IMG/VR virus record: IMGVR_UViG_3300047160_029729
Coordinates: 1 to 10,361 of that record
Origin: a virus
Direction: 5' to 3' (one strand)
Length of the DNA: 10,361 nt
Shown here one piece after another: positions 2,524 to 4,437 of the stretch. How positions within the stretch are numbered: the stretch's first letter is position 1; each line of letters begins with the position of its first letter. The notes beneath the pieces are model-generated. The model had not been told where the DNA came from and ran no database searches. It saw only the letters and a program-made list of their open reading frames with translations. The translations under genes were made by a program, and so were the position numbers.

Positions 2524-4437
2524 ATGGAATTCCTCACCTCGCATCTCGGCCTCATTCTGGGCGGTGCCGGGTTGCTCCTTGCCTTGGTCCTGCACCGGTT
2601 GGTGCTGCGACTGTTCGGCATGGTCAGCATCCCCGAAGATGCCATCGGCATCGTCACCAAGAACTTCGTCCTGTTCGGTGCTCACAAGGCACTGCCTGAC
2701 GGCGCAGTCGTCGCCCTCAACGGCGAGGCCGGCGTCCAAGCCGACACCCTGCCTCCGGGCATCCACTTCTGGCTGTGGCCCTGGCAGTACCAAATTGAAA
2801 TCGTCAAGTTCATCAACGTCCCGCAAGGCCACCTCGGCGTCATCATCAGCCGGGACGGCAAGGCGATCAGCGGCGGTCGCGTCCTCGGCAAGACCGTGGA
2901 GTGTGACAGCTTCCAGAATGCTCGGGCCTTCCTGACAAGCGGTGGGGAGCGTGGTCCGCAGCTCGCCATCATCCCGCCCGGCACCTACCGCGTCAACACT
3001 GGCCTGTTCGAGGTCAAGTTCACCGAGGCGACTGAGATCCACGACAACAAGGTCGGCGTCGTCACCACCAAGGAGGGCACTCCCCTCGCTACGGGTGACA
3101 TCGCTGGTCCCGAGATTGCTGGTCACAACATGTACCAGGACCCGCAGGCCTTCATCAATGGCGGCGGTCGCAAGGGCCTGCAGGAGCAGGTCATCCTGGC
3201 CGGTCGCTACTACATCAACCCGCTGTTCGCCACGGTCGAGGAAGTTCCGATGACCGAGGTGCCCATCGCCAATGCTGGCGTCGTCATCGCCTTCGTCGGC
3301 AAGGAAGGCGTCGATGTCACCGGCGACTCGTTCAAGCACGGCAACCTGGTCAGCAAGGGCCAGAAGGGCGTCTGGGCTGAGCCGCTCGACCCGGGTCGCT
3401 ACCCGATCAACCCCTACACCCACCGGGTGGAGAGCGTGCCGACGGCCAACATCGTCCTAAACTGGGCGACTGGCAAGACCGAGGCCCACAACCTGGACAA
3501 GAACCTCAGCACCATCACGGTGCGGTCCAATGACGGCTTCACGTTCAACCTCGACGTGTCGCAGATCATCCACATCCCCCGCTCCGACGCTCCCAAGGTC
3601 ATTGCCCGCTTCGGCAATGTCGCCAACCTGGTCACCCAGGTCCTGGAGCCGACGATCGGCAACTACTTCCGCAACGCTGCCCAGGGCAGTGACGTCATCA
3701 AGTTCCTCGGCGCCCGTCAGGAGCGACAGAACGACGCCAAGACGGCGATCGGCGGAGCCCTCAACGAGTACAACGTCGTCGCGGTCGACACCCTCATCGG
3801 CGACATCACCCCTCCCAAGGAGTTGATGAAGACCCTGACGGACCGCAAGATCGCGGAGCAGGAGCAGATGACCTTCGAGACCCAGCGCATGGCAGAGGAG
3901 AAGCGCAAGGACCTCGAGCAGGCGAAAGCGACGGCGGCCACCCAGGCTAAGGTCGTCGATGCCGAACGGAAGGTTGCCATCGCGGACTTCGAGGCCCAAC
4001 AGGCCGTGAAGAAGGCGGAAGGTGACTCACGGTCGATGGTCATCAATGCCAAGGCCAACGCTGACATGAAGGTGGTCCAGGCAGAAGCGGACGCCAAGGT
4101 CAAGACGGCGATCGCCGAGGCAGACGCCAAGGCCACCGTCCTCAACGGCGATGCTGAAGGCAAGCGCATCACCGCGGTAGGCCAGGCCGAAGCTGACGTC
4201 ATCAAGAAGAAGGCAGATGCCGTCGATCAGACCAACTACGCCACGATCGAAGTGGCCAAGGCGCTCGCCAACGGCAAGCACCCGCTGGTCCCGGGCATCG
4301 TCGCTGGTGGTCAGGGCGGAGGCGGCGATTCCAACTCGCTCGTCAACGTCCTGCTCGCTACCCTCGTCAATGGACAGGTCTCCCACCCGGCCCCCAAGTC
4401 CAACGGCAGGAAGGCCCCCGAGAGCACCGAATCCTGA
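2524..4437 (+). CDS. Membrane-anchored SPFH/Band-7 flotillin-like protein (YqiK/FloT-like architecture). It has an N-terminal TM helix and a split SPFH domain with a ~220-aa beta-rich insertion carrying three PG[RT]Y-x-[IV]N repeats. A C-terminal E/A/K-rich coiled coil follows, then a Gly-rich tail
   Basis: ATG 2524 is the first start after an in-frame TAG (2503-2505). The N-terminus LGLILGGAGLLLALVLHRLVLRL is a predicted TM helix. PPGIHFWLWPWQYQIEIV is the canonical SPFH opening beta-hairpin (cf. HflC EPGLHFKIPFIETV, stomatin GPGLFFILPC). The SPFH core reads NLSTITVRSNDGFTFNLDVSQIIHI...APKVIARFG...VLEPTIGNYFRNAAQ...ALNEYNVVAVDTLIGDITPPKELMKTLTDRKIAEQEQ. Then comes a flotillin-type charged EA-repeat region (AEEKRKDLEQAKATAATQAKVVDAERKVAIADFEAQQAVKKAEGD...AEADAKVKTAIAEADAKA). 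Codon usage is strongly GC3-biased. Confidence 0.85.
   Translation: MEFLTSHLGLILGGAGLLLALVLHRLVLRLFGMVSIPEDAIGIVTKNFVLFGAHKALPDGAVVALNGEAGVQADTLPPGIHFWLWPWQYQIEIVKFINVPQGHLGVIISRDGKAISGGRVLGKTVECDSFQNARAFLTSGGERGPQLAIIPPGTYRVNTGLFEVKFTEATEIHDNKVGVVTTKEGTPLATGDIAGPEIAGHNMYQDPQAFINGGGRKGLQEQVILAGRYYINPLFATVEEVPMTEVPIANAGVVIAFVGKEGVDVTGDSFKHGNLVSKGQKGVWAEPLDPGRYPINPYTHRVESVPTANIVLNWATGKTEAHNLDKNLSTITVRSNDGFTFNLDVSQIIHIPRSDAPKVIARFGNVANLVTQVLEPTIGNYFRNAAQGSDVIKFLGARQERQNDAKTAIGGALNEYNVVAVDTLIGDITPPKELMKTLTDRKIAEQEQMTFETQRMAEEKRKDLEQAKATAATQAKVVDAERKVAIADFEAQQAVKKAEGDSRSMVINAKANADMKVVQAEADAKVKTAIAEADAKATVLNGDAEGKRITAVGQAEADVIKKKADAVDQTNYATIEVAKALANGKHPLVPGIVAGGQGGGGDSNSLVNVLLATLVNGQVSHPAPKSNGRKAPESTES

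What the first reader, a model, noticed from the sequence alone, without database searches (positions are those of the whole stretch)
2960..3440. Flotillin-like protein has a split SPFH domain with an inserted triple-repeat beta-rich segment
The canonical SPFH opening hairpin (PPGIHFWLWPWQYQIEIV) is ~220 residues away from the rest of the SPFH core (NLSTITVRSNDGFTFNLDV...). The intervening sequence contains three similar units: IPPGTYRVNTGLFEV, LAGRYYINPLFATVEEV and DPGRYPINPYTHRVESV. They echo the G-P-x-x-[FY]-x-P hairpin motif of the neighbouring MVP-like repeats. This may be an unusual domain insertion, or it may indicate shared repeat ancestry between the two adjacent genes.
Basis: seen in the sequence. 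Interest (0 to 1): 0.5.

Follow-up and report, generated by a model that had tools for sequence, protein, structure and literature searches.

The report
SPFH protein with stacked vault-like repeats
This phage-borne membrane scaffold protein does not have a broken SPFH domain: the small beta module that normally opens the domain is present four times in a row, and the predicted stack resembles the wall repeats of the eukaryotic vault particle.

Summary
ORF 2524-4437 (637 aa) reads: N-terminal membrane anchor, four homologous 64-74-aa beta units (U1-U4), SPFH core, long coiled coil, C-terminal tail. The four "hairpins" are the C-terminal ends of the four units.

- **Contiguous domain:** U4 adjoins the core, and Pfam Band_7 aligns aa 282-461 as one stretch.
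- **Significant repeats:** profile comparisons give U2/U3 E 3e-19, U1/U2 4e-7 and U2/U4 2e-7.
- **Variable copy number:** close homologues carry 2, 3 or 4 central units. Distant relatives carry 13-16 before a single Band_7 domain.
- **No sequence link to the neighbour:** no similarity to the adjacent MVP-like gene was detected, and 80 bacterial homologue loci lack such a neighbour.
- **Origin:** the contig is a jumbo-phage fragment. The MVP-like/SPFH pair recurs in related phage contigs.

Most likely it forms a membrane-anchored SPFH ring or cage whose wall is lengthened by the repeats. This is a new variant of a known kind.

The parts
2524..4437 (+). Complete gene for the 637-aa SPFH-family protein (stop codon included)
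   Evidence: ORF list. Pfam Band_7 scores 95.8 bits against a cut-off of 23.6. It is identical to database protein P0001 and has more than 8000 full-length homologues.
2545..2619 (+). N-terminal hydrophobic membrane anchor (about aa 8-32). K/R residues follow it, so the bulk of the protein is inferred to be cytoplasmic.
   Evidence: The highest Kyte-Doolittle 19-mer score is 2.2, starting at aa 10. Across 120 homologues the mean K+R count is 0.2 before the segment and 1.5 after it. AF2 predicts helices at aa 8-22 and 24-30. Topology is inferred from the positive-inside rule.
2620..2811 (+). Unit U1 (aa 33-96); it ends in the hairpin PPGIHFWLWPWQYQIEIV
   Evidence: hhalign U1 vs U2 gives probability 92.7, E 4e-7. 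There is a faint Band_7 match to profile positions 12-39 (E 0.15). AF2 predicts five strands.
2812..3033 (+). Unit U2 (aa 97-170); it ends in IPPGTYRVNTGLFEV. This is the unit type that is duplicated in longer homologues.
   Evidence: U2 vs U3 gives probability 99.2, E 3e-19, and BLASTP E 2e-9. Extra units in P0022 and P0058 are 55-71% identical to the U2 type.
3034..3252 (+). Unit U3 (aa 171-243); it ends in LAGRYYINPLFATVEEV
   Evidence: AF2 pLDDT is 82-90 across this unit.
3253..3444 (+). Unit U4 (aa 244-307); it ends in DPGRYPINPYTHRVESV. It is both the last repeat and the native N-terminal part of the Band_7 domain.
   Evidence: U2 vs U4 gives probability 93.5, E 2e-7. The U2+U3 HMM hits U4 at i-E 1.5e-4. 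The Pfam Band_7 alignment starts at aa 282, inside U4. In P0241-P0244, Band_7 profile positions 2-3 onward cover the last unit.
3445..3816 (+). SPFH (Band_7) alpha/beta core (aa 308-431)
3817..4221 (+). Long Ala/Lys/Glu-rich coiled-coil region (aa 432-566)
   Evidence: AF2 predicts helices at aa 432-496 and 503-566. Composition is given. phmmer aligns this region with the QmcA coiled coil.
4222..4434 (+). C-terminal tail (aa 567-637) with a Gly-rich loop and a short hydrophobic helix; this is the candidate cap or oligomerisation segment
   Evidence: AF2 predicts helices at aa 572-583 and 605-620 with low confidence. The motifs LVP..V and LVNVLLA are conserved. [quoted passage not shown]
1..2447 (+). 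Upstream MVP-like gene, truncated by the 5' end of the contig (vault repeats, MVP shoulder, coiled coil)
   Evidence: The reading frame is open from nt 3. Pfam MVP_shoulder gives E 5e-29, with weak Vault and Vault_3 hits. Homologues are 880-1060 aa. The same gene order is seen in L003, L087 and L088.
4557..5783 (+). Downstream AAA+ ATPase (408 aa); a possible but unproven partner
   Evidence: Pfam AAA gives E 1.6e-13. The gene holds the same position in L088 but is absent in L003 and L087.

Best explanation
The gene encodes a membrane-anchored SPFH-family scaffold protein. In ordinary SPFH proteins a small five-stranded beta module forms the N-terminal part of the domain. ECOD places that module in the same homology group as the MVP repeat. 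Here the module has been multiplied in tandem to four copies (U1-U4).

The domain order is: membrane anchor, U1-U2-U3-U4, SPFH core, coiled coil, C-terminal tail. U4 is contiguous with the core, so the SPFH domain is complete and conventional. U1-U3 are extra modules stacked end to end between the membrane anchor and the SPFH domain.

Mechanism (inferred): like HflK/C, QmcA, stomatin, prohibitin, erlin, flotillin and MVP, the protein probably assembles side by side into a ring whose coiled coils close a dome over a patch of membrane, here on the cytoplasmic face. The extra modules would lengthen the wall, as the R1-R9 repeats build the barrel of the vault. Repeat number (2-4 central units in close relatives, up to 13-16 in distant ones) would then set the height of the enclosed space.

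The phage copy was acquired from bacteria. In this jumbo-phage clade it is kept directly downstream of a soluble MVP homologue.

Shown here: the repeats, their homology, their copy-number variation, the contiguity of Band_7, and the fold-level match to MVP repeats and shoulder. Inferred: ring or cage assembly, topology, and the wall-height role.
For: - **Contiguous domain:** the Band_7 alignment covers aa 282-461 in one stretch.
- **Unit homology:**
- **Copy-number variation:** of 120 close homologues, 49 have 2 central units (607-671 aa), 68 have 3 (672-712 aa) and 3 have 4 (766-769 aa). The added units are U2-type duplicates, 55-71% identical to each other. The unit occurs in 1130 representatives of 50%-identity clusters, with up to 13-16 copies before one Band_7 domain.
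- **Model quality:** the AF2 model of aa 31-440 has mean pLDDT 74 and pTM 0.65, with the repeats at 80-90 and five strands per unit.
- **Literature:** PMC13607799 reports the architecture 'one MVP repeat (ECOD H-group 3529.1) + SPFH' in archaeal proteins, against 8 tandem repeats in rat MVP. PMC12624060 treats the vault as an SPFH complex with additional domains.
- **Membrane anchor:**
- **Phage origin and conserved gene pair:**
Against: - No Pfam Vault-repeat model matches the units, and no profile-profile signal links them to the neighbouring MVP-like protein. The MVP link therefore rests on predicted structure only.
- The models are monomers of moderate confidence. The U4-core linker (aa 306-330) has pLDDT below 40, so the packing of U4 on the core is not well determined.
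- Oligomerisation, stoichiometry, topology and any effect of repeat number on cage height are untested.
Confidence: 0.7

Rival explanations
1. One reading: the SPFH domain is split. Its opening hairpin (aa 77-94) folds back onto the core (aa 327 onward), and a foreign triple-repeat segment is inserted between them.
For: U1's hairpin is the most Band_7-like by eye and gives a faint Band_7 match (E 0.15, profile 12-39). It lies about 230 residues from the core.
Against: - Pfam aligns U4's hairpin, not U1's, contiguously with the core.
- U1 is homologous to U2, and through U2 to U4.
- Homologues insert or delete whole units without disturbing either end.
- In 13-16-unit relatives, the Band_7 model covers the last unit from profile position 2-3.
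- The predicted array is linear and collinear with MVP repeats plus shoulder.
Confidence: 0.04
2. The repeats were acquired from, or exchanged with, the adjacent MVP-like gene by local recombination or domain shuffling inside the phage.
For: The two genes are adjacent and co-oriented with a 76-nt gap. Both have a repeats, SPFH/shoulder, coiled-coil layout. The pairing is conserved in related phage contigs. The unit fold resembles MVP repeats.
Against: - hhalign of shallow and deep unit profiles against the MVP-like alignment gives probability below 3%.
- Bacterial homologues at 61-69% identity already carry the same units. None of the 80 sampled loci has an MVP-like gene within 5 kb.
- Niveibacterium and a 642-kb huge phage have the gene without an MVP neighbour.
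- An MVP-like gene also occurs in a phage contig without the SPFH gene next to it.
Confidence: 0.05
3. The SPFH protein and the MVP-like protein work as one machine. The membrane-anchored repeat-SPFH ring tethers or caps a vault-like shell made by the soluble MVP homologue, possibly serviced by the downstream AAA+ ATPase. This would give the jumbo phage a membrane-attached protein compartment.
For: The gene order MVP-like then SPFH is conserved in the window and in four related phage loci (L003/L004, L087, L088). Shared contig lengths in the two hit lists suggest further pairs, not checked for adjacency. The AAA+ gene follows in the window and in L088. Many SPFH complexes are built from two adjacent paralogues or partner with AAA+ proteases (PMC12624060).
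Against: - The SPFH family is overwhelmingly stand-alone in bacteria.
- The repeat regions differ in length, about 4 units against roughly 560 aa of repeats in the MVP-like protein. A simple alternating hetero-ring is therefore unlikely.
- The AAA+ gene is absent in L003 and L087.
- No interaction data exist.
Confidence: 0.15
4. The repeats are a spacer stalk, not a cage wall. They hold a conventional SPFH ring at a set distance from the membrane, or act as binding modules for a client, with no lateral contacts between neighbouring stalks.
For: The modules are tandem beta domains in variable number, as in bacterial surface stalks. The longest relatives show weak CshA-repeat matches and a C-terminal VWA domain.
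Against: - In every solved SPFH assembly the N-terminal module sits in the laterally packed wall next to the membrane (PMC12624060).
- The predicted stack superposes on MVP repeats, which do pack laterally.
- Unit surfaces are strongly conserved across phyla, more than a passive spacer would need.
Confidence: 0.12

Closest known systems
Canonical membrane SPFH proteins (HflK/HflC, QmcA, stomatin, prohibitin, erlin)
   Different: Those proteins have a single N-terminal beta module. This protein has four in tandem, and relatives have up to 13-16 matched unit copies. No subfamily model (HflK, HflC, flotillin or others) reaches its threshold.
Major vault protein (MVP), subunit of the eukaryotic vault (PDB 4V60, 3GF5)
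   Different: This protein has a membrane anchor and 4 units of 64-74 aa with a short helix, against 9 repeats of about 55 aa (repeat size from my own knowledge of the rat structure). No Vault, Vault_3 or MVP_shoulder Pfam hit was found, and no detectable sequence similarity. MVP is soluble and forms a closed two-halved shell (PMC12624060).
Archaeal 'compact MVP-like' proteins: one MVP repeat (ECOD 3529.1) plus SPFH (PMC13607799)
   Same: The building plan is the same: MVP-repeat-like module(s) directly N-terminal to the SPFH domain, followed by a variable C-terminal part.
   Different: Those proteins are 317-396 aa with a single module. Here the module is present in 4 copies, with copy number varying between relatives. 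This fills the gap between 1 repeat and the 8 tandem repeats that paper assigns to rat MVP. ECOD assignment of these units was not run.
E. coli YqiK / flotillin-type SPFH proteins (COG2268; the name JGI gives this protein)
   Same: They are similar in overall length, have an N-terminal anchor and a very long Ala/Glu/Lys-rich coiled coil, and their bulk is inferred to be cytoplasmic.
Phage-encoded MVP homologues (bioRxiv 10.1101/2023.11.10.566534)
   Same: This shows that tailed phages can carry bacterial-type MVP genes, as the upstream gene here does.
   Different: That report describes two human-gut phage MVPs and does not mention SPFH, Band 7 or flotillin. The gene studied here is the SPFH partner, not the MVP.

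Membership tests
SPFH / Band 7 superfamily | Band_7 (PF01145) domain above the curated threshold | tested here: met
   The score is 95.8 bits against a cut-off of 23.6, covering aa 282-461 and profile positions 15-166 of 176.
SPFH / Band 7 superfamily | SPFH alpha/beta fold | tested here: met
SPFH / Band 7 superfamily | N-terminal membrane anchor and C-terminal coiled coil | tested here: met
   There is a hydrophobic segment at aa 8-32. AF2 predicts helices at aa 432-496 and 503-566.
SPFH / Band 7 superfamily | Assembly into a large ring or cage on a membrane | not testable with these tools
   Only monomer models could be made. The CC1-length regression of PMC12624060 (y = 0.1782x + 10.22) gives about 22 subunits for a 65-aa helix, or about 34 if aa 432-566 is one helix. 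This is extrapolation only.
Flotillin / YqiK subfamily | Match to a flotillin- or YqiK-specific sequence model | tested here: not met
   No Pfam family other than Band_7 matches at E <= 1, and no NCBIfam model comes near its cut-off. The only support is the JGI label 'uncharacterized membrane protein YqiK'.
Major vault protein family | Vault repeat Pfam models (PF01505, PF17794-6) | tested here: not met
   There are no Vault hits for the whole protein or for the isolated units, even at E <= 10.
Major vault protein family | MVP_shoulder (PF11978) rather than generic Band_7 | tested here: not met
   Only Band_7 matches. The neighbouring gene does hit MVP_shoulder (E 5e-29).
Major vault protein family | Tandem five-stranded beta repeat domains stacked linearly N-terminal to the shoulder (fold level) | tested here: met
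Major vault protein family | Soluble protein, no membrane anchor, closed two-halved shell | tested here: not met
   A conserved N-terminal hydrophobic anchor is present. Shell formation is not testable here.
Tandem-repeat protein (internal duplication) | Units significantly similar to each other, with whole-unit copy-number variation among homologues | tested here: met
   Unit similarity is shown. Copy number is 2, 3 or 4 central units in 120 homologues and up to 13-16 in distant relatives. The added units are 55-71% identical to each other.

The most novel reading that the evidence does not exclude
This widespread and so far undescribed family of membrane-anchored SPFH proteins, with 2 to about 16 MVP-like repeats, may be the missing structural intermediate between ordinary SPFH cages and the vault. 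The proteins would form membrane-tethered 'half-vaults' whose height is set by repeat number. In this jumbo-phage clade the protein would cooperate with the adjacent soluble MVP homologue, and sometimes an AAA+ ATPase, to build a vault-like compartment at the host membrane during infection.
Probability: 0.15. Interest if true: 0.8.

Novelty: new variant of a known kind. Interest (0 to 1): 0.5.

Why it matters
The origin and function of vaults are long-standing open questions, and the vault is treated as the odd one out among SPFH assemblies: it is soluble, closed and has extra wall domains (PMC12624060). An abundant prokaryotic and phage family that keeps the SPFH membrane anchor but already carries a variable stack of MVP-like wall modules would help in two ways.

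- It gives a concrete model for how the vault barrel could have arisen by tandem duplication of the SPFH N-terminal module.
- It offers a natural series (2, 3, 4 ... 16 units) for testing whether repeat number sets cage height.

The finding also flags that some jumbo phages carry an MVP homologue and this protein as a conserved pair, which hints at phage-built protein compartments at the membrane. In practice, these proteins are annotated only as 'SPFH domain-containing' or 'YqiK', and about 210 residues of conserved repeat are covered by no Pfam model.

Tried and rejected
- **Unit profiles against the neighbour.** I ran hhalign of each unit profile, and of a deep profile of 721 distinct units, against the alignment of the neighbouring MVP-like protein. 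Nothing exceeded 3% probability. The SPFH core against the MVP shoulder also gave nothing, so the test has low sensitivity and does not exclude deep homology.
- **Pfam scan of isolated units at E <= 10.** There was no Vault hit. The only results were a sub-threshold ATP-synt_ab_Xtn match and a faint Band_7 match for U1.
- **NCBIfam.** Only coiled-coil noise appeared (TolA, Wag31, HflC), far below the cut-offs.
- **DNA-level tandem repeats in nt 2500-3600.** None were found.
- **AFDB50 fold search.** The library was unavailable.
- **Conserved MVP neighbour in bacteria.** None of the 80 loci had one.
- **Phage-MVP preprint.** I checked it for any mention of an adjacent SPFH gene and found none.
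- **Chance motif recurrence.** I considered and rejected this on the statistics.
- **A 768-aa MVP-like ORF starting at nt 141.** I rejected this as the true gene start, because the frame is open to the contig edge.
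Full report
**The gene and the observation.** The finding lies in ORF 2524-4437 (+), 637 aa. All quoted peptides are present:

| Peptide | aa |
|---|---|
| PPGIHFWLWPWQYQIEIV | 77-94 |
| IPPGTYRVNTGLFEV | 150-164 |
| LAGRYYINPLFATVEEV | 225-241 |
| DPGRYPINPYTHRVESV | 289-305 |
| NLSTITVRSNDGFTFNLDV (core) | 327-345 |

Pfam finds one family, Band_7 (95.8 bits). It aligns aa 282-461 to profile positions 15-166 in a single stretch. So Pfam takes the fourth hairpin, not the first, as the canonical hairpin, and that hairpin is contiguous with the core. 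NCBIfam gives nothing near threshold.

**Four homologous units, not a split domain.** Reading outward from each hairpin shows a longer period of 64-74 aa:
- a short strand 'xVP';
- a strand 'xxGVVxx';
- a loop, with a short helix 'FQxAxAF' in U2 and U3;
- a strand '(G)PQxxxI';
- the hairpin 'PGxYxIN(P)...FxVxxV'.

I defined U1 as aa 33-96, U2 as 97-170, U3 as 171-243 and U4 as 244-307. I then cut unit profiles from an alignment of 42 homologues.
- Profile-profile comparison gives U2/U3 probability 99.2 (E 3e-19), U1/U2 92.7 (E 4e-7), U2/U4 93.5 (E 2e-7), and nothing for any unit against the SPFH core.
- U2 and U3 of this single protein give BLASTP E 2e-9.
- An HMM built only from U2 and U3 recovers U4 (i-E 1.5e-4).
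- No DNA-level repeat remains.

**Copy number varies by whole units.** The homologue search returned more than 8000 full-length relatives, labelled only 'SPFH domain-containing protein' or 'YqiK'.
- In the alignment, about 675-aa proteins have one extra unit and about 766-aa proteins have two, inserted in register.
- Among 120 homologues the HMM counts 2 central units in 49 (607-671 aa), 3 in 68 (672-712 aa) and 4 in 3 (766-769 aa).
- The extra units are U2-type copies, 55-71% identical to each other but only 25-42% identical to the U3 type.
- A profile of the unit, searched against 1.84 billion cluster representatives, finds 1130 proteins at E <= 1e-3. The top ones carry 13-16 copies in 1600-1800 aa.
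- Those giants have one Band_7 domain directly after the last strong unit, with the Pfam alignment starting at profile position 2-3, and then a C-terminal VWA domain.

This behaviour fits a tandem array ending in the native N-terminal module of the SPFH domain. It does not fit a foreign insertion.

**Predicted structure.**
- A full-length AF2 model from 42 sequences was mediocre: mean pLDDT 62, with the repeats at 70-85.
- A second model of aa 31-440 from 87 sequences was better: mean pLDDT 74, pTM 0.65, with the repeats at 80-90.
- Each unit is predicted as five strands, plus a short helix in U2 and U3.
- The U4-core linker (aa 306-330) is poorly modelled, although it is almost invariant in sequence.

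Foldseek independently places full-length MVP chains among the top hits:

| Target | E-value | Other |
|---|---|---|
| 9z4w_1 | 1.7e-7 | - |
| 4v60_A (rat MVP) | 1.3e-6 | TMq 0.49 over 454 columns |
| R1-R7 fragments | about 1e-5 | 296 columns |

The weaker first model gave the same picture. The tools did not print residue-level alignments. That the repeats are what matches 3gf5 follows from the content of that chain.

**Relation to MVP and to the neighbouring gene.** The upstream gene (nt 1-2447, cut by the contig end) is an MVP homologue: MVP_shoulder E 5e-29, weak Vault hits, and homologues of 880-1060 aa.
- No sequence-level link to the SPFH units could be shown. hhalign gave under 3% probability with both shallow and deep unit profiles. 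No Vault Pfam hit appeared for isolated units.
- The test is insensitive, because the SPFH core against the MVP shoulder also scored nothing.
- The literature supplies the wider frame. PMC13607799 reports that archaeal SPFH proteins carry one ECOD 'MVP repeat' (H-group 3529.1) in front of the SPFH domain, and that rat MVP elaborates this to 8 tandem repeats. PMC12624060 treats the vault as an SPFH complex with additional domains and no membrane association.

The present family, with 4 modules here and 2 to about 16 overall, plus a membrane anchor, sits between those two extremes. I found no paper describing it.

**Genomic context.** The window is the whole 10,361-bp contig.
- A homologue 81% identical lies on a 369.5-kb contig packed with small unannotated ORFs and T4-type markers, that is, a jumbo phage. 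An MVP-like gene sits directly upstream there too.
- The same pair occurs in L087 and L088. An AAA+ ATPase follows in the window and in L088, but not in L003 or L087.
- A 642-kb huge phage has a 55%-identical homologue without an MVP neighbour.
- A 241-kb phage-like contig has the MVP-like gene without the SPFH gene.
- In GTDB species representatives, 485 matched stretches encode a relative. They come from Acidobacteriota, Gemmatimonadota, Verrucomicrobiota, Ignavibacteriota, Myxococcota and other phyla, some on Mb-scale contigs.
- None of the 80 fetched loci, nor Niveibacterium, has an MVP-like gene nearby.

The repeat array therefore predates the phage pairing and was not borrowed from the neighbour.

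**Mechanism.**

Shown:
- an N-terminal hydrophobic segment, with K/R enriched after it;
- four stacked modules;
- an SPFH core;
- about 135 residues of coiled coil.

Inferred, from established knowledge of SPFH assemblies (PMC12624060):
- side-by-side assembly into a ring whose coiled coils form a dome over a membrane patch, with the bulk of the protein on the cytoplasmic side by the positive-inside rule;
- a lengthened wall, built by the extra modules as MVP repeats build the vault barrel;
- a stoichiometry of about 22-34 subunits, from the published CC1-length regression and depending on whether the helix break at aa 497-502 is real. This is a rough extrapolation.

What the cage encloses, and why a jumbo phage keeps it beside an MVP homologue, is unknown. 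Co-operation of the two, possibly with the AAA+ ATPase, is the most interesting reading the data do not exclude.

**Verdict.** Shared ancestry with the adjacent gene specifically is not. The protein is a member of the SPFH superfamily with a multiplied N-terminal module, which makes it a new variant of a known kind. Interest is moderate, mainly for vault and SPFH evolution and for jumbo-phage biology.

Noticed in passing
window 1-2447 (+): The MVP-like gene is truncated by the contig start. The frame is open from nt 3 ('WYIVLKNPAEGDK...'), and homologues have about 140 more N-terminal residues. The listed ORF start at nt 141 is therefore an artefact.
   Followed up: yes
window 8647-9249 (+); also L003 17191-17799, L087 11393-11809, L088 11900-12556: A 200-aa ORF matches only the first ~46 positions of the T4 Gp23 major-capsid model (Pfam E 3.8e-8; PHROG 138 'major head protein'). 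Similar small ORFs sit a few kb downstream of the SPFH gene in related phage contigs. They may carry a Gp23-like N-terminal propeptide or targeting segment rather than being capsid proteins.
   Followed up: partly
window 7549-8043 (+) and 8647-9249 (+): Two neighbouring ORFs share an N-terminal motif: 'PGAWVNH..GMVVASDGDQASVLWS' against 'PGVWVTH..GIIVAINDDQMSVLWS'. This suggests a small paralogous domain family in this phage. It was seen by eye only.
   Followed up: no
window 4557-5783 (+); L088 9078-10355: A classical AAA+ ATPase (408 aa, PF00004 at aa 205-314, N-terminal 180 aa unassigned) follows the SPFH gene here and in L088, but not in L003 or L087. Several SPFH complexes partner with AAA+ proteases, so a functional link is conceivable.
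   Followed up: partly
window 6819-7556 (+); L003 14238-15104; L087 13254-end: A Peptidase_M24 (methionine-aminopeptidase-like) gene (E 1.6e-53) is conserved a few kb downstream in the related jumbo-phage contigs. This is an unusual phage-encoded function.
   Followed up: no
proteins P0241-P0243, not in the window: Distant relatives of 1638-1802 aa carry 13-16 copies of the same unit, then one Band_7 domain and a C-terminal von Willebrand factor A domain.
   Followed up: partly
L005 5908-7803 (LR756502.1, 642-kb uncultured huge phage): A low-GC huge phage encodes a 631-aa homologue (55% identity) with the same four-unit layout but no MVP-like neighbour. The record has no annotation.
   Followed up: partly
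window 3439-3513 (aa 306-330, 'PTANIVLNWATGKTEAHNLDKNLST'): The linker between U4 and the SPFH core is almost invariant across phyla, yet AF2 models it with pLDDT below 40 in both models. It may only become ordered in the oligomer or on binding a partner.
   Followed up: no
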